Shown piece by piece: positions 77 through 19,992 of a stretch of 20,000 nt of DNA (position 1 is its first letter; each line of letters opens with the position of its first letter). The notes beneath the pieces are model-generated. The model made no database searches. It had not been told where the DNA came from and saw nothing but the letters and a program-made list of their open reading frames with translations. Source of the DNA: an uncultured virus (IMG/VR IMGVR_UViG_3300027406_000071) (lineage: Duplodnaviria; Heunggongvirae; Uroviricota; Caudoviricetes); IMG/VR virus record IMGVR_UViG_3300027406_000071; one strand, 5' to 3'. The translations under genes were made by a program, and so were the position numbers.

Positions 77-1159
77 TTAATTATCTATCTTATTATTTAT
101 CTTATTTATTTTTTCAGGTGTCAAGTTTTTAAGAAAATGAACGTATAATTCAATGCAATTCTTAACATCTTTCTTATGTGCCATTTCTACAGTTGAGTGC
201 ATATATTTAAGTGGCATACCTAAAATAGCAGTTGGTGTATTCTCTAAAAAGAATGCAACAGTATCATTTCCATAACTACCAACATGATGTTGAAGTGGAA
301 TATTATTGTTCTCTGCAACTTTCTTGATCATGTTTAAAATACCTCTATGATTTTGAGATGCATACTCTAATGATGGTCCTTTACCACCTTCAACTGGCCC
401 ATGTTTTGCATTATCCATTTTTGGTGTTGCTGTATTATGGCAAACATCTGTGACTAATGCTAAATCAGCTTGTAATTCTTTTGCAATTTTTTTAGCGCCA
501 AATAATCCAACTTCTTCTTGTACTGAATTAACTACATATAGATCAAATGGCAAATCTACACCTTCTTTGTGTATTTTTCTAAGAACCTCTGCTATAATAT
601 AACCTCCTATCTTATTATCTAATGCTCTACCTACATAATAATCACCCATTTCTTGTAATTGATCATCAAATGTAATTAAACATCCTACTTCAACACCAGC
701 TTCATTTACTTTTTCTAAACTATCTAATCCAGTGTCTACCCATAATTCATGATCAGCATAACCTAAATCTTTTCTTTTAACTCTCGTATGAATTGCTGGC
801 CAACCAAAAACACCTTTAACTTGTTCTCCATCATGTGTATGAATAGTTACTGCCTTAGAAGGTGCAATCATATTATCTGATCCTCCATGTTTTCTAACTC
901 TAATCATACCATCTTTTTCAATATTAGTAATAATCCATGCAATTTCATCACAGTGGGCTTCAATTACTACTTTTGGAAATTGAGTATTAAATTTGGTTTT
1001 AGATTTTCTAACTCCGTATGAAGTTCCATATGCATCTGTATACAAAAAATCAGAAAACGGTTTAATGTAATCAGTCCATATTTTTTGACCTTCAGTTTCC
1101 TGTGCTACTGGAGCATAAGCATTTAAGTAATCATATAAAAATTGTTTGTTCTTTTTCAT
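77..1159 (-). CDS. M42 family metallo-aminopeptidase (FrvX/TET-like)
   Basis: Metal-ligand motifs AHCDEI, ALDNKIG, VQEEVG, TDV and YMHS; 360 aa; typical M42 layout. Confidence 0.9.
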   Translation of the reverse strand: MKKNKQFLYDYLNAYAPVAQETEGQKIWTDYIKPFSDFLYTDAYGTSYGVRKSKTKFNTQFPKVVIEAHCDEIAWIITNIEKDGMIRVRKHGGSDNMIAPSKAVTIHTHDGEQVKGVFGWPAIHTRVKRKDLGYADHELWVDTGLDSLEKVNEAGVEVGCLITFDDQLQEMGDYYVGRALDNKIGGYIIAEVLRKIHKEGVDLPFDLYVVNSVQEEVGLFGAKKIAKELQADLALVTDVCHNTATPKMDNAKHGPVEGGKGPSLEYASQNHRGILNMIKKVAENNNIPLQHHVGSYGNDTVAFFLENTPTAILGMPLKYMHSTVEMAHKKDVKNCIELYVHFLKNLTPEKINKINNKIDN

Positions 1160-1923
1160 ATACCTTTTAATTCTTTAAATGTTTTTCTTCTTCTTATAAA
1201 TTGCTTAGAATAAAATTCTAAATCTGATTGTGTTAATGTGAAACATTGTGGTATGTTATCTTCTTCATTTGCAATCCATATTTCTCCACCATCTGCTTTA
1301 ATTCCTGTCATATCCCAATATGCAATAAAGTATGCACCACATTGTATGAAATAATCTTGAATCCAATCTTCTCTTTTTGGTCTTCTACTGTTTTTATAAT
1401 CAATAATAACAACTTTATCATCAACCATTTTAGAAATATTATCTACTGTTCCAGCCCATCCTCCACCTTTTACAGTCCATAAGAATGTTTCTGCTTCTAA
1501 TACTTTAACAACTCTATCAAAATAATCAGAACTATTAAAATAGAATTTATAAAAGAATTTCCATGCTTCTTCTAAATAAAGAGGTCCATTGTCTTCTTCG
1601 CTGAATTGGTTAACCTCCTCATCTTCTTTTGCTAAATCTTTAAGAATCTTTAGCCTTTCAGTGGCTGACCCAGAAGTGCTCTTATACAGTTCTATGAGTC
1701 TGTGCATAATAGTTCCCCTGTTCATTGAAAGTTCAGATATACGTTTAGCTTCGGCTTCACCTACTCTTTTTTTCCATTTCTCTAAACCTGACATATCTTT
1801 GGTATTACCCAAGATAGTAGTAACTGAAGGCAACTTAGCTATTACTTTGTCACCTTCAGTTACTTGATAAAACCTAAGTCCATCTTCATGAACTCTGTTT
1901 ATTGATACTTCTTCTGTTTTCAA
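1156..1923 (-). CDS. PD-(D/E)XK exonuclease (phage exonuclease, Cas4/RecB-like)
   Basis: LPSVTTIL, RGTIMH, AGTVD, IIDYKNS and Q-x-x-AY motifs; TTG start. Confidence 0.85.
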   Translation of the reverse strand: MKTEEVSINRVHEDGLRFYQVTEGDKVIAKLPSVTTILGNTKDMSGLEKWKKRVGEAEAKRISELSMNRGTIMHRLIELYKSTSGSATERLKILKDLAKEDEEVNQFSEEDNGPLYLEEAWKFFYKFYFNSSDYFDRVVKVLEAETFLWTVKGGGWAGTVDNISKMVDDKVVIIDYKNSRRPKREDWIQDYFIQCGAYFIAYWDMTGIKADGGEIWIANEEDNIPQCFTLTQSDLEFYSKQFIRRRKTFKELKGI

Positions 1924-3572: not shown

Positions 3573-3748
3573 AAAAATTGTTTAAATTGTGTTTCTTCTT
3601 TTTTTCTAGATTCTTCTAGTTTTTTTACATGATATTCTCTGGCATATTGTTCCATGATCTTGCTCATTGTTGTGTAATGAGAAAATGCATCACTATCTAT
3701 ATTTTTATTTGGCCATTCATTTTTATCTAACCATTCTTTTGCTGTCAT
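3569..3748 (-). CDS. Hypothetical 59-aa protein (MTAKEWLDKNEWP...)
   Basis: Hand-translated; fills the gap exactly, with ATGA overlaps at both ends. Confidence 0.75.
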   Translation of the reverse strand: MTAKEWLDKNEWPNKNIDSDAFSHYTTMSKIMEQYAREYHVKKLEESRKKEETQFKQFL

Positions 3749-4074
3749 TTTCTTTTCTTTTGAAATAATGGTATAGTCAATGTAACTGTGGCTCCTCCCA
3801 TCATAGTAGCTAACACATCTCTGCGCTCTACCGTACCACCAGTTCTACTATCATACAATTCTTTTAATATACCTGCTGAAATTGATGCTAACATTCCCGT
3901 TATTTGAGCTCTTGTTTTATTATTATGTTTTTTATATGACCAATAATAACCTACTGTGCTAGCTGCTGCGCCTGCTATAAAATGTATTTGTTTGTCTTTC
4001 TCTTGTAAAATAAAATTCTGCCCAACCATGTTTGTTGTTAACATAAATAGAATTATTAAAAAGAAATGTCTCAT
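3745..4074 (-). CDS. Membrane protein, YfiM-like
   Basis: Signal-like N-terminus; DKQIHF, KELYD and DVLAT motifs with hydrophobic helices. Confidence 0.65.
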   Translation of the reverse strand: MRHFFLIILFMLTTNMVGQNFILQEKDKQIHFIAGAAASTVGYYWSYKKHNNKTRAQITGMLASISAGILKELYDSRTGGTVERRDVLATMMGGATVTLTIPLFQKKRK

Positions 4075-4310
4075 CGGTTTGCTCTTTGGTTTTTTGATTT
4101 AAATCTGATACCATCATTATTTTTGGCATGCTTTGTCTTTCTGCCTTTAACTCGCTCTCTCCACATTTTAAATGAGGATTCTTTCATGTGCTTCCTCATT
4201 AACTTCCTAACATCATTCTCTTTAAGTCCGAATTGGAATTCAATGGCCTCAAATGGAGTTCTATCCTCCCAAGCCATTTCTATAATTCTATCAATTTGTT
4301 CTTCTGTCAT
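4071..4310 (-). CDS. TIGR03643 / DUF2805 family protein
   Basis: Recognisable IEMAWEDRTPFEAIEFQFGLKE...SSFKMWRERV signature. Confidence 0.88.
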   Translation of the reverse strand: MTEEQIDRIIEMAWEDRTPFEAIEFQFGLKENDVRKLMRKHMKESSFKMWRERVKGRKTKHAKNNDGIRFKSKNQRANR

Positions 4311-4390
4311 TTTGATCCTAGTATCATTAGAGTAAAAAACCCAATCACTGTAAGAATATTAATTATTGTATAAATTCTTTCTTCTTTCAT
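4307..4390 (-). CDS. 27-aa single-helix microprotein (MKEERIYTIINILTVIGFFTLMILGSK)
   Basis: Hand-translated; ATGA overlaps with both neighbours. Confidence 0.6.
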   Translation of the reverse strand: MKEERIYTIINILTVIGFFTLMILGSK

Positions 4391-4641
4391 TTCTCTGTAT
4401 AATTGTTCGTTAGTAACGTCAATAGAATATTCACCTCTGTAGGATTAGTAAATCTAATCTCCGGAGTTTCAAATGCCTCAACATACCATCCATCTTCTTC
4501 AACCTCATCACTTGCTGGTGAGATTAAGCTGAAGTTACCTACGTCGTATGTGTAGTAGTGGAAGTCATTTGGTGCTCCACTATTCTCAGCTGTCTCGTCA
4601 TTGCGAGTGAAGTCTAATTCTATTAGTTGCTTTTCTGTCAT
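4387..4641 (-). CDS. Hypothetical protein, cassette D of the repeat-delimited array
   Basis: Start codon lies inside junction repeat copy 1. Confidence 0.8.
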   Translation of the reverse strand: MTEKQLIELDFTRNDETAENSGAPNDFHYYTYDVGNFSLISPASDEVEEDGWYVEAFETPEIRFTNPTEVNILLTLLTNNYTEK

Positions 4642-4653
4642 CTCTCTTTGGTG

Positions 4654-4812
4654 TTAAAGACAATGGTCATTTAATGGTATATCATTCTCATTCTTATACC
4701 CAAGTCCAAGTGTAATATCCTCTTTAGTGGTAAGCGTTGTACCATCTTTATAAGTGATAGTTACTACTCCTTCTTTGACTTCAATCATTTGAACATTGTC
4801 TAATGGTTTCAT
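4654..4812 (-). CDS. Hypothetical 52-aa protein, cassette C (MKPLDNVQMIEVKEG...DHCL)
   Basis: Hand-translated; ATG in repeat copy 2, stop TAA inside the core of repeat copy 1. Confidence 0.75.
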   Translation of the reverse strand: MKPLDNVQMIEVKEGVVTITYKDGTTLTTKEDITLGLGYKNENDIPLNDHCL

Positions 4813-5093
4813 CTCTCTTTGGTGTTAAAGGTTTCTAATATATGTAGAGCAAAGTCTGCCATCATATCATAGTGATAATGAGCATAGGTTTGTCCTTCAC
4901 TACGATTAGACTGAACAAAGTCATCAGTCATAGATAGAATCTTGTCGTGTGTATCAGTACCATATTCTGCTAATACTTTATCCCACTCCTTTTTTAGCAC
5001 CTCTTTAGGTGTTGTCTTAACGATGTGTTCCATCTCTTCACCAAAGTTGTCAAAATCTGCTTCTGGATTGTAATTTGGATTTACTTCACTCAT
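4809..5093 (-). CDS. Hypothetical protein, cassette B, ending ETFNTKER
   Basis: ATG in repeat copy 3; C-terminus and TGA encoded by repeat copy 2. Confidence 0.8.
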   Translation of the reverse strand: MSEVNPNYNPEADFDNFGEEMEHIVKTTPKEVLKKEWDKVLAEYGTDTHDKILSMTDDFVQSNRSEGQTYAHYHYDMMADFALHILETFNTKER

Positions 5094-5239
5094 CTCTCTT
5101 TGGTGTTAAAGGTTTCTTCCTTGTAGTTCTTAATACATTCCTCCTCCATTAGGTCAACCCATTTTGAGTACGAGATTTCTTCTCTATTAAGTTGCCATTC
5201 CAACTCTCTTACAAATCCTTGCTTTAAGTATTTACCCAT
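5090..5239 (-). CDS. Hypothetical 49-aa protein, cassette A (MGKYLKQGF...ETFNTKER)
   Basis: Hand-translated; ATG in the arm of repeat copy 4; C-terminus encoded by repeat copy 3. Confidence 0.78.
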   Translation of the reverse strand: MGKYLKQGFVRELEWQLNREEISYSKWVDLMEEECIKNYKEETFNTKER

Positions 5240-5250
5240 TGTCTTTGGTG

Positions 5251-5496
5251 TTAAACATACATTGGAAAATCTACACCATGTCGGTGTACAAATGAGTTGT
5301 GTACCTCTTCATCTAATTCAATTCTTACATCAACATCACTGTCCTTAAACATTCCAGTTAAAGCAGTAATATCAAAGTCAGTATATTCTTGATCTTCAGT
5401 TTTATCTTCTAGCGTTCTTAATGCAGTTTGATAAACTTGTAATGCTTTTACAATAATATCCCTTTGTGGCTGTGGTAATTTAACTGTGTTTCTCAT
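5251..5496 (-). CDS. Hypothetical protein (MRNTVKLPQPQRD...), 81 aa
   Basis: Start moved from 5631 to 5496 to avoid overlap; stop TAA lies in repeat copy 4. Confidence 0.7.
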   Translation of the reverse strand: MRNTVKLPQPQRDIIVKALQVYQTALRTLEDKTEDQEYTDFDITALTGMFKDSDVDVRIELDEEVHNSFVHRHGVDFPMYV

Positions 5497-5497
5497 T

Positions 5498-5773
5498 CTA
5501 ATCAACTTTTTCTTTTTTACGGCCTTTCCAATCTCTATCCATTCTATTCTTTCTAGCATTTTTAAGAGCTTCGCGTTCTTTATTAACTGGAAATCTACTA
5601 AAGTTTCCCATACCATCCATATCCACATCATCGCTCATCGATCCATGTCTATCATAATAGTTTGGATAGTTTTCTTCTCTTTGTTTTTTAGCACCATAGA
5701 AGATGTTCCATATTGTAAAATAGATGTAAACTGAAAATATCAGTCCACCCATAATAAAAAATCCTAGATTCAT
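5498..5773 (-). CDS. Hypothetical protein with N-terminal transmembrane helix (MNLGFFIMGG...)
   Basis: Start moved to the ATGA overlap at 5773. Confidence 0.7.
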   Translation of the reverse strand: MNLGFFIMGGLIFSVYIYFTIWNIFYGAKKQREENYPNYYDRHGSMSDDVDMDGMGNFSRFPVNKEREALKNARKNRMDRDWKGRKKEKVD

Positions 5774-5958
5774 GAGTTTCTTCTTTGTCTGATCGCTATC
5801 GCAAAAAGGAGGATAGTTCCTGGCCAGTGTGCCGAATACTGAGCTTCTTCTGTGTAACCTAATACTCCATAAGTTACGGAATATAGAAGGCATGCAAATG
5901 CTAAAATTACTGGGTACCAGTTATTAAAGAATTTTTTGAATTTGTTAATCTTGTTCAT
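5770..5958 (-). CDS. Small two-helix membrane protein (MNKINKFKKFF...)
   Basis: Start moved to 5958; two hydrophobic segments. Confidence 0.65.
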   Translation of the reverse strand: MNKINKFKKFFNNWYPVILAFACLLYSVTYGVLGYTEEAQYSAHWPGTILLFAIAIRQRRNS

Positions 5959-5974
5959 AATATTTAATTTATAG

Positions 5975-6826
5975 TTATTCATATGCTTTAGGGTTAGGTA
6001 ATCCACTGTAATAATCCCAATCTTTTAAATCATCTCTGTGGATAGGTACATTCCATTTAGGATCATACCAAAATCTACGGTTCTTAGAATCTATACGAGT
6101 ATCCATCATTTTGTTTCCATAACACAACATAAATTTTTCTTGAATTGCGTTTTCGCCAAATGGATTATCCCAATCTTTGATGCTTCCACCGCCCTTTGCG
6201 TATGCCAACATTGGAATATCTGTACATAATTCTAGTATTTTTGGGTACTTTGCAATTTGTTGTGCTGCCGGAAGAAATGGATCAACATCACCTGCTCTAA
6301 AAATAATTTCAGCTCTTAGATAATTACCAATACCATTAAACCATTTTTGATCCATAAGAACCTCATATAATGGTTTACGAAATGTTTTTTTAGTTAGATT
6401 TGTCATGATATTCAAAAAGAATTCACGTGGTTCTGTTGTTGGATCTGGACCTCTTCCTTCATTCCAACTCAAACCTTGTGTCCATTTACCAAAACGTCTA
6501 ACATCTACAAATGACAATGTTGTTCCATCTTTTCTATAAAATTTAAGATGTGCGTGTTTGTCTTCTTGTCCAGTGTTAGTAGTTCTAAAATGACCACTCA
6601 TACCCATAGTAATACGTATAGGAATAGTTGCTTCACTATCATCATCTTTGATAGTTAATATGATCTCTTTACCTTTACTTTCTGAAGTTAGTGTAAAATA
6701 TTTAAATGGGATATCTAATTCTGCCCCTTTGTGTTGAGGATTCTTTTTTACATTTGTGTAAATCATTCCACTTGATGCTTGATTTACATAGTCTGATGTT
6801 AATTTAAGTTCGGCTAGTTCTGGCAT
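5975..6826 (-). CDS. Fpg/Nei family DNA glycosylase/AP lyase, NEIL1-like
   Basis: N-terminal catalytic MPE; GMSG; FVDVRRFG; H2TH motif LMDQKWFNGIGNYLRAEI; no C-terminal four-Cys zinc finger. Confidence 0.92.
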   Translation of the reverse strand: MPELAELKLTSDYVNQASSGMIYTNVKKNPQHKGAELDIPFKYFTLTSESKGKEIILTIKDDDSEATIPIRITMGMSGHFRTTNTGQEDKHAHLKFYRKDGTTLSFVDVRRFGKWTQGLSWNEGRGPDPTTEPREFFLNIMTNLTKKTFRKPLYEVLMDQKWFNGIGNYLRAEIIFRAGDVDPFLPAAQQIAKYPKILELCTDIPMLAYAKGGGSIKDWDNPFGENAIQEKFMLCYGNKMMDTRIDSKNRRFWYDPKWNVPIHRDDLKDWDYYSGLPNPKAYE

Positions 6827-6828
6827 AA

Positions 6829-7053
6829 TTAAAATGGTAAGTCTTGGTTCAACAATTTTTCTGTCTTGATTGCATCAATATCAACTTCCTTTACGTTTAA
6901 TGATGCGAACGGTGTAATATGCAATTTATGTACATCCCACTGTTGATTTGGGTGCAACGCATTCTGGTTTTTGGCGATCAGTTCTGCTTTAGAAAAAGCA
7001 TGTTTATCATTGTCACCTTCAATGTAAACTTCATAAGTTACTGTATATCTCAT
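6829..7053 (-). CDS. Hypothetical protein
   Basis: 74-aa ORF directly downstream of a class I promoter motif. Confidence 0.75.
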   Translation of the reverse strand: MRYTVTYEVYIEGDNDKHAFSKAELIAKNQNALHPNQQWDVHKLHITPFASLNVKEVDIDAIKTEKLLNQDLPF

Positions 7054-7070
7054 AGTTCTGCTTTAATATT

Positions 7071-7124
7071 ATACTACTAATATACAAAAAGTTTATGACA
7101 TAAAAAAATCTGGGTGAATTATTT
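7071..7124 (-). promoter_or_regulatory. Class I promoter-like repeat GATTTTTTTATGTCA-N10-GTATATTAGT
   Basis: Same two boxes with a fixed 10-nt spacer at 11821, 12258 and 19923; always intergenic and upstream of a minus-strand gene. Confidence 0.8.
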
Positions 7125-11426: not shown

Positions 11427-11795
11427 TTAATTTGATTGATTATTTTTTTTGGTATTACGATAATTAACAACTGCTTTTGCAAGGCGATCCATGCGTTCTT
11501 TAGGATCTTGAATCATCACACGTGCTGTGGTTTCGTAAATTTTACCATTGTAAGATGATTTGTAGTAACCTTTGCGCTGTGGATTTAATTGATAGATGGT
11601 TTCATGAAATTTACCACCATAATAAGACCTGGCAGCAGATGATAGTAACTTAGTTTTGTAACTTCTGCGAATATAACCACTTTCATAAGAAAGATAGTCA
11701 CAATTTGTAATTGGGTCATGATAACATATTGTACCATTGTCAGCTTGTCGTTGTGAAGTTACTTCAACACATTTAAGAGATTGTAATTTGTTCAT
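11427..11795 (-). CDS. Hypothetical protein
   Basis: 122-aa ORF downstream of a class I promoter motif. Confidence 0.75.
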   Translation of the reverse strand: MNKLQSLKCVEVTSQRQADNGTICYHDPITNCDYLSYESGYIRRSYKTKLLSSAARSYYGGKFHETIYQLNPQRKGYYKSSYNGKIYETTARVMIQDPKERMDRLAKAVVNYRNTKKNNQSN

Positions 11796-11820
11796 TTTTA
11801 TTTGTTTTGATTAATACTCT

Positions 11821-11855
11821 ACTAATATACCAAAAAATATTGACATAAAAAAATC
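11821..11855 (-). promoter_or_regulatory. Class I promoter-like repeat
   Basis: ACTAATATAC-N10-TGACATAAAAAAATC on the + strand. Confidence 0.8.
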
Positions 11856-12217
11856 TATGCTAATATTTTTTCACTTTTTTTAGCCTTAATGTGTTTACAA
11901 TCTCCTCTAAAGAAATTCATTGCTGGACAATTACATCCCCAAACACCGTTTGTTTCAGTAACATCATAGAATTTTCCAGGCTTAGAAGACTCTACTTTCC
12001 ATGATCTGTTTTCAGTTTTAGTTTTAGTGATCACTGACACAGGTTTTGGTTTTTCTATTTTAGTACTTTTGTCAAACTTAATCTGATCTCTAGTAGTTCC
12101 TTTAGGAACCGGGTGCCAACCTGGACATACATAAGTAGCATCAACTGTATTTACTATAGCAAATACGTCGCCATAACAATTATCGTAAGGGAATGTAAAA
12201 GTAGAAGTGTTTGACAT
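11855..12217 (-). CDS. SWIM zinc-finger protein
   Basis: Y-x-V...WGCNCP...CKH (CxC...CxH) motif at the C-terminus. Confidence 0.8.
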   Translation of the reverse strand: MSNTSTFTFPYDNCYGDVFAIVNTVDATYVCPGWHPVPKGTTRDQIKFDKSTKIEKPKPVSVITKTKTENRSWKVESSKPGKFYDVTETNGVWGCNCPAMNFFRGDCKHIKAKKSEKILA

Positions 12218-12229
12218 AATTTGTGTTTG

Positions 12230-12304
12230 GTGAGGTATTAACCTCCATTAGTATACTACTAATATACCACAAATAAATGACATAAAAAAATCTGGGTGAT
12301 TTAT
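12230..12304 (-). promoter_or_regulatory. Class I promoter-like repeat plus leader hairpin GAGGT-TAAT-ACCTC
   Basis: 63 bp (12230-12292) match 19895-19957 with 3 mismatches; the distal part also matches 7096-7124. Confidence 0.82.
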
Positions 12305-15647: not shown

Positions 15648-16286
15648 TTACCAGTTTTTCTTATATTTATCGCCATCCACCCAAGAGAACAATCTTGTTT
15701 CTTCGACGTCATGTAATACTATTGTTTTATCAGTTACTTTATCATCGTAAAACCATTCATATCCAAATAATGCAACATCAGTGTCCATTGTTTTGATAAT
15801 CTGATTATTAAATGTCTTACATCCATGTGCCCAATAAATATTATCTCCATAACATTCTAAACATTCATTAATAACTCTACTATTTGGTGCAGAACCATAA
15901 ACTGTACAATCTATTAATGTGTTATTTTCTTGTGTAGGTTTCATACCTGCAAAGAATGTGTGTTGTGGTGAAAGGTGTGCTAAACATTCATCAAATGGTC
16001 TGATAGGTTTTGCATCTAAATCACAGTAAACTCCACCATAATCTCTAAGTATAAGTATTCTAACTCTATCTGCAATAAAAGCCCATTTATAAACTTCTGG
16101 CTCTGTTATATAATTTTGTAAAAACTTATCATTTTTATAGACATCATTAAAGACCATATCATGTGTCCATAATGTATATTCCCAATCAGGATGCATGGCT
16201 TGCATCTCTTCTCCAAATTTCACACACCATGCTGGTGGCTCTTTTTCTCCAATCCAAACTTGATGAATTTTCTTAGGTATTTTCAT
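15648..16286 (-). CDS. Glycosyltransferase, GT32/OCH1-like (DXD)
   Basis: IPKKIHQVW, ADRVR and YGGVYCDLD motifs. Confidence 0.9.
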   Translation of the reverse strand: MKIPKKIHQVWIGEKEPPAWCVKFGEEMQAMHPDWEYTLWTHDMVFNDVYKNDKFLQNYITEPEVYKWAFIADRVRILILRDYGGVYCDLDAKPIRPFDECLAHLSPQHTFFAGMKPTQENNTLIDCTVYGSAPNSRVINECLECYGDNIYWAHGCKTFNNQIIKTMDTDVALFGYEWFYDDKVTDKTIVLHDVEETRLFSWVDGDKYKKNW

Positions 16287-19879: not shown

Positions 19880-19894
19880 TTTTTATTGGTTTTA

Positions 19895-19957
19895 GTGAGG
19901 TAGTAACCTCCATTAGTATACTACTAATATACCACAAATATTTGACATAAAAAAATC
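19895..19957 (-). promoter_or_regulatory. Class I promoter-like repeat plus leader hairpin
   Basis: Near-identical to 12230-12292. Confidence 0.82.
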
Positions 19958-19992
19958 CGGAGCTAATTATTTTCAAATTAGTTTCCGGATTT
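19949..19992 (-). terminator. Intrinsic terminator of the upstream unit, overlapping the class I promoter
   Basis: Minus strand AAATCCGGAAACTAATT...AATTAGCTCCGGATTT followed by a T run. Confidence 0.7.

What the first reader, a model, noticed from the sequence alone, without database searches (positions are those of the whole stretch)
4650..5252. 591-bp three-cassette block bounded by perfect 11-bp inverted repeats and 6-bp direct repeats
Seen: 4656-4666 AAAGACAATGG and 5236-5246 CCATTGTCTTT are exact reverse complements, flanked by direct GGTGTT at 4650-4655 and 5247-5252. Recombination between the two GGTGTT spacers would release a 597-bp circle whose junction is CCATTGTCTTT-(6 bp)-AAAGACAATGG, a perfect 11-6-11 site. 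It would leave a tidy empty site joining the 5251 stop to the 4641 start. Known: 11-6-11 is the geometry of XerCD/dif-type sites, although this sequence is not canonical dif. Inference: the outer cassette edges record an intact recombination site, with further cassettes inserted inside it. An alternative is a small non-autonomous element with terminal inverted repeats and a target duplication.
Basis: partly seen in the sequence, partly recalled or inferred. Interest (0 to 1): 0.8.

Follow-up and report, generated by a model that had tools for sequence, protein, structure and literature searches.

The report
Shared junction motif shuffles phage genes
Three tiny genes of an uncultured marine phage lie between copies of a 26-letter stop-start junction that hundreds of other phage genes share, and related phages carry none, one, two or reordered copies of them, so the inverted repeat first noticed is a by-product of a gene-shuffling junction.

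Summary
The 11-bp arms (4656-4666, 5236-5246) and the GGTGTT repeats are there.

The GGTGTT repeat and the inner CTTT/AAAG belong to a 26-nt junction, J, read on the coding (minus) strand: AAACC-TTT-AACACC-AAAGAGAGATGA. J precedes four consecutive small genes here. Its 20-nt core occurs in at least 121 IMG/VR loci, always co-oriented with the genes. It supplies stop codons in two frames and the next start codon.

At least seven other states of the same locus also exist, with 0 to 4 cassettes and the order p52/p94 swapped. Every J-associated breakpoint falls in the 14-nt core.

The predicted 11-6-11 circle junction was not found (0 of 20 p52 ends, 0 of 13 p49 starts). The two arms belong to two independently moving cassettes: the last codons of p52 and the start region of p49. 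No tyrosine recombinase was found in five related phage records.

Best reading: a portable stop/start junction that serves as short homology for recombinational cassette shuffling. It resembles the PeSLs of T4-type phages but is shorter, overlaps coding sequence, and is shared by T4-like and small unrelated phages. It is a new variant of a known kind.

The parts
5236..5255 (-). J4: variant junction TTTAACACCAAAGACAATGG. It holds the TAA stop of the upstream gene (5251-5253) and the ATG of p49 (5237-5239).
   Evidence: The variant is found in 11 IMG/VR loci, and in all but one (L128) it travels with the p49 gene.
5090..5117 (-). J3: full junction, 28 nt identical to J2. The upstream p49 reads through it (..ETFNTKER) and stops at the TGA that overlaps the ATG of p94 (ATGA).
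   Evidence: (family D3).
4809..4836 (-). J2: full junction between p94 and p52, with an ATGA stop/start overlap.
4638..4666 (-). J1: junction between p52 and p84. p52 stops at the TAA inside the motif.
   Evidence: The same p52 end is kept in 20 other contexts.
5090..5239 (-). Cassette gene p49 (49 aa, MGKYLKQGF..). No Pfam family.
4809..5093 (-). Cassette gene p94 (94 aa, MSEVNPNY..). No Pfam family. It has at least 16 different downstream neighbours in 19 related loci.
4654..4812 (-). Cassette gene p52 (52 aa, MKPLDNVQ..HCL). It has 14 different downstream neighbours.
4387..4641 (-). p84 (84 aa, MTEKQLIE..). It is the right-hand neighbour of the block. It is itself present or absent among relatives: absent in G001, L186 and L196.
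5251..5631 (-). p126. In relatives it is an 81-aa gene starting at the internal Met, about 5251-5496. It is the left-hand anchor of the cassette locus.
4307..4390 (-). m27 (27-aa membrane-like ORF, MKEERIYTIINI..), followed by the DUF2805 gene (4071-4310). Together they are the right-hand anchor of the cassette locus.
4659..5255 (.). The 597-nt stretch present here and absent from G006/L187. Its limits are ambiguous within the 14-nt core TTTAACACCAAAGA.
   Evidence: G006 matches window 5511-5242 and 4658-4380, and the two matches overlap in G006 by exactly the 14-nt core.

Best explanation
The window comes from a roughly 220-kb T4-like phage of marine bacteria. The host is probably Flavobacteriia.

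The 591-bp block is three independent minigene cassettes (p49, p94, p52). They sit in a small cassette array between two anchor genes, p126 and m27/DUF2805. Every cassette is bounded by the same 26-nt junction, J, read on the coding strand as AAACC-TTT-AACACC-AAAGAGAGATGA.

J is a ready-made gene joint. It ends the upstream reading frame in two of the three frames: at the TAA inside it, or at the TGA that overlaps the ATG. It also carries the purine-rich leader and the ATG of the next gene.

Because the same 20-26 nt stand at both ends of every cassette, recombination between any two J copies adds, removes, duplicates or reorders whole genes that are ready to be expressed. This can happen within one genome or between co-infecting phages. 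The likely enzymes are the phages' own recombinases: UvsX/RecA-like in the T4-likes, and Erf, PD-(D/E)XK or YqaJ types in the small phages.

The 11-bp inverted repeat arises because the start region of p49 happens to be complementary to the last codons of p52. It is not needed for the exchange.

Shown: the motif, its register with stops and starts, its spread, and exchange exactly at its core. Inferred: a role in translation, and homologous recombination rather than site-specific recombination.
For: Motif:
- There are 3 exact copies and 1 variant in the window, against 0.01 expected.
- Conservation has sharp edges at -8 and +17. Positions outside the search pattern are still 80-90% conserved (200 unique copies).

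Register with genes:
- Of 62 core copies that were not selected through the ATG, 52 have a start codon at +13/+14.
- Of 62 loci with at least 2 copies, none has copies on both strands.
- Of 216 copies, the upstream ORF ends at the overlapping TGA in 80 and at the internal TAA in 70. It lies in the third frame in 14, and no long ORF reaches J in 52. The conservation is therefore not that of a peptide tail.

Cassettes:
- 182 distinct proteins in 90 clusters start at J, with a median length of 56 aa.
- 59 of 67 representatives have no Pfam family.
- 130 of 191 J-to-J intervals are filled at least 85% by one ORF, and the median interval is 220 nt.

Exchange at J, from the allelic series at this locus:
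- p126-J-m27 (L186, L196)
- p126-J-p84 (L145=L195, L187)
- p126-p49-p84 (L180)
- p126-p49-p52-p84 (L166)
- p49-p94-p52-p84 (window, L174)
- p126-p49-p52-p94-m27 (G001, L127)
- p126-p52-..-m27 (L184)
The blastn blocks end inside J.

Recent transfer: the cassettes are 97-99% identical in nucleotides, while the neighbouring Fpg gene is only 75-81% identical.

Retrieval by protein, independent of J: 18 of 18 p94 homologues with a 3' end have J or a near variant.

Recombinases: RecA/UvsX-like genes are present in G001 and G005. PD-(D/E)XK nuclease genes lie in 27, Erf in 8 and YqaJ in 5 of 132 J-bearing loci.

Natural populations: metagenome unitigs break at J, and their loose ends lead into other cassettes.
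Against: - No experiment or read-level datum shows how the exchange happens. Homologous and site-specific recombination leave the same products.
- Twenty to 26 nt is short for classical homologous recombination.
- J shows no special complementarity to the 16S rRNA of a Flavobacteriales genome. 109 and 126 of 200 shuffles pair as well. A ribosome-binding role is therefore not backed by pairing.
- J is confined to small islands, 2-20 copies per genome. It is not the phages' general start signal, so something beyond translation may keep it.
- The core has a 4-6-4 palindromic shape (CTTT-AACACC-AAAG), as recombinase core sites do.
- Some arrangements could in principle be assembly chimeras, although several recur in independent contigs.
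Confidence: 0.7

Rival explanations
1. J is the core site of a dedicated site-specific exchange system, integron-like or Xer-like, run by a host enzyme or an unrecognised phage enzyme. Cassettes leave as circles and re-enter at any J.
For: - The core has the shape CTTT-AACACC-AAAG, two 4-bp inverted arms around a 6-bp spacer.
- All exchanges map to the 14-nt core.
- J is shared by unrelated phage lineages: T4-like genomes of 212-297 kb, and 8 complete genomes of 32-64 kb without gp23. This would suit a host-encoded enzyme.
- J is restricted to small islands and is not a general start signal.
Against: - No tyrosine recombinase was found in 5 phage records totalling 530 kb, while the control rang in 14 of 14 genomes.
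- J is in strict register with stop and start codons and always on the coding strand.
- Half-motifs occur alone. The 5' half occurs alone in 10 of 62 copies, and the 3' half alone in 4 of 12 p94 starts. This fits two gene-linked halves better than one protein site.
- The inverted arms are only 4 bp long.
- No circle junction was seen.
Confidence: 0.12
2. J is kept mainly as an operator: a binding site on mRNA or DNA for a regulator that switches the whole set of minigenes together. Cluster K start-associated sequences have been suggested to work this way. On this view, recombination at J is a side effect.
For: - 26 nt is longer than any ribosome-binding signal and is conserved letter for letter across unrelated genes.
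- J is restricted to a subset of genes.
- J overlaps the start codon.
- J shows no rRNA complementarity.
Against: - No RegA- or RegB-like gene was found. The controls were silent, so this is not informative.
- A phage-encoded regulator would have to be shared by unrelated phage lineages.
- No candidate gene recurs next to the islands other than recombination and replication genes.
Confidence: 0.1
3. The outer edges of the block are the two halves of a perfect 11-6-11 Xer/dif-type site, which would be re-formed on an excised 597-bp circle. The other cassettes were inserted inside it.
For: - The arms are exact and abut the shared spacer, p about 2e-3.
- The predicted empty site exists.
- Both arms are kept in G001 and L166, where p49-p52 are adjacent.
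- The 11-bp helix appears in the centroid RNA fold.
Against: - The circle junction is found in 0 of 20 p52 3' ends and 0 of 13 p49 5' ends.
- p49 and p52 mostly occur apart.
- In L184, p52 directly follows p126 without p49.
- The p49 arm varies: AAAGAGAATGG in L138 and L201, and no J at all in L139/L140.
- The empty site is equally predicted by any J x J exchange. Five different right-hand neighbours of p126 exist.
Confidence: 0.03
4. The block is a small non-autonomous transposon with terminal inverted repeats and a 6-bp target duplication.
For: It has inverted ends flanked by a direct 6-mer.
Against: - The 6-mer is part of J in every one of over 200 copies, whether or not an inverted repeat is present.
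- The interior is three cassettes that move separately.
- The block was not found as a unit at any other site.
Confidence: 0.01

Closest known systems
PeSL (promoter-early stem-loop) cassettes of T4-type phages. Sources: Arbiol et al. 2010, PMC2839356 (outline and section 13 read); Comeau et al. 2014, PMC4122927 (abstract read).
   Same: - Both are short repeated motifs at the borders of small ORFan genes in the variable regions of T4-like phages.
- In both, recombination between copies gives insertions, deletions and replacements between close relatives.
- Mini-circles are proposed as vectors.
- The close relative G001 encodes gp23 and a UvsX-like recombinase.
   Different: - PeSLs are intergenic composites of a sigma-70 promoter, a terminator hairpin and a Shine-Dalgarno sequence.
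- J is 26 nt, has no promoter boxes and no hairpin, overlaps the end of the upstream gene, and contains its stop and the next start.
- J is also found in complete 32-64 kb phages without gp23.
- The window has separate promoter-plus-hairpin repeats that look more like PeSLs.
Start-associated sequences (SAS) of cluster K mycobacteriophages (Pope et al. 2011, PMC3203893; passages read).
   Same: - Both are asymmetric repeats in one orientation, a few bases from start codons.
- Both are restricted to non-structural genes of different families.
- Both are longer and better conserved than rRNA pairing explains.
- The function of both is unknown.
   Different: - The SAS is 13 bp, contains AGGAG, lies 3-7 bp before the start, and is confined to one phage cluster.
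- J is 26 nt and includes the ATG and the upstream stop codons.
- J spans unrelated phage lineages.
- Gene exchange at J is documented here.
Boundary or linker sequences of lambdoid phage modules, from the modular theory of phage evolution.
   Same: Both are short conserved sequences at gene borders that serve as homology for swapping modules.
   Different: J is far more uniform and more numerous. It bounds single minigenes rather than functional modules.
Integron gene cassettes (attC / attI / IntI). This is recalled.
   Same: Both are arrays of co-oriented single-gene cassettes, mostly without promoters, whose number and order vary.
   Different: - There is no integrase.
- There is no folded attC-like imperfect palindrome; only a 4-bp inverted repeat is present.
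- The junction is part of the coding and start region.
XerCD/dif sites and the elements that exploit them. The 11-6-11 geometry is recalled.
   Same: Both have a 6-bp spacer between partly inverted inner arms.
   Different: - The perfect 11-6-11 site exists only on paper.
- J is multicopy, gene-oriented and start-codon-linked.
- J was not compared with a Bacteroidota dif sequence, because no tool supplied a reference.

Membership tests
XerCD/dif-type site | An intact 28-bp site (11-bp arm, 6-bp spacer, 11-bp arm) present in DNA | tested here: not met
   The predicted junction was absent from all contexts fetched: 0 of 20 p52 ends and 0 of 13 p49 starts. In the window only hybrid sites exist.
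XerCD/dif-type site | Sequence likeness to the host's dif | not tested
No Bacteroidota dif reference was obtainable from the tools.
XerCD/dif-type site | One site per replicon, not tied to gene starts | tested here: not met
   There are 2-20 co-oriented copies per phage record. 52 of 62 unselected copies are in register with a start codon.
Integron cassette array | A tyrosine recombinase (IntI) beside the array | tested here: not met
   PF00589 was found in 0 of 5 phage records, while the control rang in 14 of 14 genomes. The records are incomplete (22-87%).
Integron cassette array | attC: a 60-140-nt imperfect palindrome that folds as a hairpin | tested here: not met
   Conservation covers only 26 nt with sharp edges. 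The only symmetry is CTTT/AAAG.
PeSL of T4-type phages | A sigma-70-like -35/-10 promoter plus a stable stem-loop in an intergenic space | tested here: not met
   There is no intergenic space, because ORFs fill the J-to-J intervals. Nothing is conserved upstream of -8. No hairpin is present.
PeSL of T4-type phages | Marks the points of insertion, deletion and replacement between close relatives in variable regions | tested here: met
   eight states of one locus, all with breakpoints in J.
Start-associated sequence (cluster K) | An asymmetric repeat in one orientation, immediately upstream of start codons of non-structural genes | tested here: met
   However, the sequence, length, host and phage group differ, so this is a likeness and not membership.
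MITE-like element (TIR + TSD) | The whole element moves as a unit and makes a new target duplication | tested here: not met
   The 6-mer is part of every J copy. The three genes occur separately.
T4-like myovirus (identity of the phage) | gp23 major capsid protein, gp20 portal protein and other T4 core genes | tested here: inconclusive
   None was found in the 56.7-kb record of the window itself. gp23 is present in the syntenic 212-kb relative G001. gp20, gp23, the prohead protease and the terminase are present in the 248-kb contig G004:C1, which shares p49.

The most novel reading that the evidence does not exclude
J is the address label of an integrase-free cassette system. In this reading, a common pool of about a hundred or more families of ORFan minigenes is traded among unrelated marine phage lineages, from T4-like jumbo phages to phages of 30-60 kb. 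Trade occurs through a dedicated mechanism acting at the CTTT-AACACC-AAAG core, such as cassette mini-circles made by a host-encoded or still unrecognised recombinase or annealase. The same 26 nt also program termination-reinitiation, so that any cassette is expressed wherever it lands.
Probability: 0.15. Interest if true: 0.85.

Novelty: new variant of a known kind. Interest (0 to 1): 0.6.

Why it matters
Phage genomes are full of tiny genes of unknown function. How these genes spread between unrelated phages is mostly inferred and seldom seen.

Here one locus is caught in at least eight states in environmental DNA, with every J-associated breakpoint inside a 14-nt core. The same junction precedes at least 182 different minigenes in phages as different as T4-like giants and 30-60 kb phages.

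This gives three things:
- A concrete, searchable marker for a shared accessory-gene pool of abundant marine phages. The stretch is held by runs of 18 studies.
- A natural test bed for recombination on very short homology.
- A candidate portable expression joint for hosts, probably Bacteroidota, whose translation start signals are poorly understood.

Tried and rejected
- Isolate phage collection: no DNA match to the region or to the motif. The best protein relatives of the ligase are only 30-35% identical.
- Literature: the motif string is in no relevant paper. The 4 hits are unrelated eukaryotic primers. No description of such a junction in flavobacterial phages appeared in the listing.
- Rfam: no family matches 4200-5800.
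- RegA and RegB families: no match, but the controls were silent, so this is uninformative.
- 16S rRNA pairing: J pairs no better than shuffles with the 16S rRNA of a Flavobacteriales genome, either whole or at the 3' tail.
- Sequencing runs: only contigs were available. Transcript starts, strand and rare circle junctions could therefore not be seen.
- One joint in run X5, 4834 to 5090, has only 28 nt on its shorter side and lies in the 28-nt repeat, so I do not count it.
- RNA-library contigs hold the region, but this does not show transcription.
- The PD-(D/E)XK nuclease of the window (1156-1794) is not similar to the nuclease family that recurs near J in small phages.
- Long-range mRNA pairing of the two arms appears in the centroid fold but not in the minimum-energy fold. 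I reject it as a function because the two cassettes mostly occur apart.
- Host assignment from genome bins is mixed: 2 Flavobacteriales, 1 archaeal, 1 alphaproteobacterial and 1 Marinimicrobia record. The Bacteroidota call rests on a T9SS sorting domain in the related phage, and so is only probable.
- Earlier notes of this scan: nothing for this genome or this sequence.
Full report
**1. The observation.**
The sequence read and an exact search confirm every coordinate.
- AAAGACAATGG lies at 4656-4666, and its reverse complement at 5236-5246.
- GGTGTT lies at 4650-4655 and 5247-5252.
- The block is 591 bp and the period is 597 bp.

By itself a perfect 11-bp inverted pair within 700 nt is ordinary in this AT-rich DNA: 8 are observed against 10.8 +/- 3.1 in shuffles. 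The unusual part is that both arms abut the same 6-mer. Four of the 11 bp come with a shared motif.

**2. What surrounds it.**
All genes of the window lie on the minus strand. Read on that strand, four consecutive small genes are each preceded by the same sequence.
- TTTAACACCAAAGAGAGATG occurs at J1 (4639-4658), J2 (4810-4829) and J3 (5091-5110).
- The variant TTTAACACCAAAGACAATGG occurs at J4 (5236-5255).
- The gene order is p126 - J4 - p49 - J3 - p94 - J2 - p52 - J1 - p84 - m27 - DUF2805.

The inner CTTT/AAAG of his arms is also part of it. The outer 7 bp of the arms are the start region of p49 (..ACA-ATG-G) and the last codons of p52 (..CAT-TGT-C, His-Cys-Leu-stop).

**3. The phage.**
- The window is part of a 56.7-kb IMG/VR record estimated to be 25% complete.
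- It differs from that record at six bases, three of them around J3. Both alleles occur in natural samples.
- The syntenic 212-kb contig G001 encodes a T4-type major capsid protein and a RecA/UvsX-like protein.
- A 248-kb contig binned with a Flavobacteriaceae genome shares p49. It carries the T4 portal protein, capsid protein, prohead protease and terminase, plus a protein with a type-IX-secretion sorting domain. This points to a Bacteroidota host.
- No isolate phage is close.

**4. The junction motif J.**
It also occurs in 5 genome-bin contigs.
- *Extent of conservation.* In 200 unique copies the conservation runs from -8 to +17, giving AAACC-TTT-AACACC-AAAGAGAGATGA, and drops sharply on both sides. 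The positions outside my search pattern are still 80-90% conserved.
- *Register with start codons.* Of 62 core copies that were not selected through their ATG, 52 have a start codon in register. The other 10 keep only the 5' half.
- *Orientation.* In 62 loci with two or more copies, none has copies on both strands.
- *Upstream reading frames.* Of 216 copies, the upstream gene ends at the TGA overlapping the ATG in 80, giving the tail ..FNTKER. It ends at the TAA inside J in 70. It lies in the third frame in 14, and no long ORF reaches J in 52. The DNA or RNA sequence is what is kept, not a peptide.
- *What J precedes.* J precedes 182 distinct proteins in 90 clusters, with a median length of 56 aa. 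I scanned 67 of the 82 cluster representatives of at least 35 aa. Of these, 59 have no Pfam family. The rest include an HNH endonuclease, a methyltransferase, a GroES-like protein, an Smr protein and an HTH protein.
- *Interval sizes.* J-to-J intervals have a median of 220 nt. In 130 of 191 intervals a single ORF fills at least 85% of the interval.
- *Not a general start signal.* G001 has J only at this locus. G005 has 20 copies in two clusters. Five complete genomes of 37-64 kb have 2-5 copies, mostly in one small island.
- *Spread across lineages.* Of 25 carrier records, only the 297-kb one has gp23. Eight records of 32-64 kb that are estimated at least 98% complete do not. J is therefore shared by unrelated phage lineages.

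**5.
I did not type the joined sequences he proposed. Instead I searched for natural stretches that would contain them. These were the J4 variant and a degenerate pattern for 'end of p126 or end of p52, plus the core', run on IMG/VR and on the metagenome collection.

*The empty site exists.*
- The end of p126, the core, and then GAGATGACAG.. of p84 occur in L145 (the same contig as L195, 23.6 kb) and in L187 (6.0 kb).
- In blastn, G006 matches window 5511-5242 at 97% and 4658-4380 at 90%. The two matches overlap in G006 by exactly the 14-nt core.

*The circle junction was not found.*
- None of 20 p52 3' ends is followed by the p49 start. These ends are 15 in metagenome contigs, 2 in IMG/VR, 1 in a genome bin and 2 diverged homologues.
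- None of 13 p49-type starts is preceded by the p52 end.

**6. The locus is polymorphic in many more ways.**
- p126-J-m27 (L186, L196)
- p126-J-p84 (L145/L195, L187)
- p126-p49-p84 (L180)
- p126-p49-p52-p84 (L166)
- p49-p94-p52-p84-m27 (window; L174 shares the p94-p52-p84-m27-DUF2805 part)
- p126-p49-p52-p94-m27 (G001, L127)
- p126-p52-..-m27 (L184)
- p126-J-other (L167)

p52 has 14 different downstream neighbours. p94 has at least 16 in 19 loci that were found by protein similarity alone. 18 of 18 of the p94 loci with a 3' end carry J or a near variant.

The cassettes are 97-99% identical in nucleotides, while the adjacent Fpg gene is 75-81% identical. This argues for recent lateral movement.

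Not all rearrangements here use J. The membrane-protein genes at about 5512-5976 and the stretch 3573-4070 are also insertions or deletions without J.

In four marine runs the assembly unitigs stop at J, and their loose ends run into other cassettes. The stretch is held by 20 runs from 18 studies.

**7. Mechanism.**
*Shown:*
- J is a stop/start joint.
- Whole genes are exchanged at its core.

*Inferred:*
- The exchange is homologous recombination on the shared 20-28 nt.
- J also serves translation, either restart or initiation.

*For homologous exchange:*
- Recombinase genes are present. UvsX-like genes occur in G001 and G005. PD-(D/E)XK nuclease genes lie in 27, Erf in 8 and YqaJ in 5 of 132 J-bearing loci.
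- No tyrosine recombinase was found in five records.
- Variants in the 5' part of J travel with the upstream gene, and variants in the 3' part travel with the downstream gene.
- Half-motifs occur alone.

*Against, or still open:*
- The homology is short.
- J has no special pairing with 16S rRNA.
- J is restricted to islands.
- The core has a 4-6-4 symmetry.

A dedicated exchange enzyme or a regulator binding J therefore remains possible.

**8. Comparison with what is known.**
- *PeSLs of T4-type phages* are the nearest system (PMC2839356, outline and section 13 read; PMC4122927, abstract read). They play the same role at the borders of ORFan genes in variable regions. They are, however, intergenic promoter-terminator composites. 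J is a 26-nt joint that overlaps coding sequence and lacks both elements.
- *Cluster K start-associated sequences* share the position and the orientation rule (PMC3203893, passages read). They differ in sequence, length and spread, and no exchange at them was described in the passages I read.
- *Integron, Xer/dif and MITE memberships* each fail on a tested defining feature (see the membership table).
- *Earlier notes of this scan* describe analogous junction repeats in other genomes. They are unverified and concern other sequences.

**9. Verdict.**
The cassette block and the empty site are right. The 11-6-11 site is not supported.
- The real feature is a widespread junction motif that bounds shuffled minigenes.
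- This is a new variant of a known kind.

**Caveats.**
- All of the evidence is comparative and comes from assembled contigs.
- IMG/VR and the metagenome scan are not exhaustive.
- The supplements of the cited papers were not consulted.

Noticed in passing
window 7039-7113, 11784-11858, 12221-12295, 19886-19960 (minus strand): There are four copies of a promoter-like repeat, GATTTTTTTATGTCA-N9-TGGTATATTAGTAG. Each lies just upstream of a gene start (genes ending at 7053, 11795, 12217 and 19879). Two copies are followed by a GAGGT..ACCTC hairpin. These look more like the PeSL elements of T4-type phages than J does.
   Followed up: partly
window 5063, 5094, 5116, 10363, 10829, 15004: The window differs from the held genome record G000 at six bases. 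Three cluster around J3, where the window's J3 is identical to J2 over 28 nt and G000's is not. The record's letters at 5063 and 5094 also occur in natural samples, in some runs beside the window's. This is possibly a short conversion tract.
   Followed up: partly
window about 5512-5976 and 3573-4070: Two further insertions or deletions relative to the relatives are not bounded by J. The first holds the membrane-protein genes. It is absent between Fpg and p126 in G001 and G006, and lies elsewhere in G001. The second holds the lipoprotein gene and a 59-aa gene, and is absent in G001.
   Followed up: no
L208/L209, L210-L213 (IMG/VR loci): p94 is itself a mosaic. Some relatives share only residues 14-94 or 48-94, fused to different N-terminal parts. 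Exchange therefore also occurs inside cassette genes.
   Followed up: no
L147:16302-17036 (G004:C1, 248-kb T4-like phage contig binned as Flavobacteriaceae): A phage-encoded protein has a cohesin-like domain and a type-IX-secretion C-terminal sorting domain. This is a Bacteroidota-specific signal and a host clue.
   Followed up: no
L130:1705-2334, L027:1952-2503, L014:1368-1994: GIY-YIG-like and HNH/NUMOD4 homing-endonuclease genes sit inside or beside J arrays. The one at L027:1952-2503 starts at a J copy. The GIY-YIG call for L130 is made by eye from the N-terminal sequence only.
   Followed up: no
many loci, for example L006, L010, L011, L029, L030, L045: Many viral contigs end within about 100 nt of a J copy. 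This suggests that assemblies break at these islands because of population heterogeneity.
   Followed up: partly
window 15648-16286 (minus strand): This glycosyltransferase has a DXD sugar-binding region. It also has a weak likeness, below the cut-off, to the TcdA/TcdB catalytic glycosyltransferase domain (E 0.0014, 18.4 bits against a cut-off of 23.6). It is probably an ordinary phage glycosyltransferase.
   Followed up: no
L126/L131/L133/L134: Two p49 paralogues (90% and 82% identical to the window's p49) lie in tandem, 319 nt apart, in four contigs. In L131 the first reads as the start of a 149-aa ORF.
   Followed up: no
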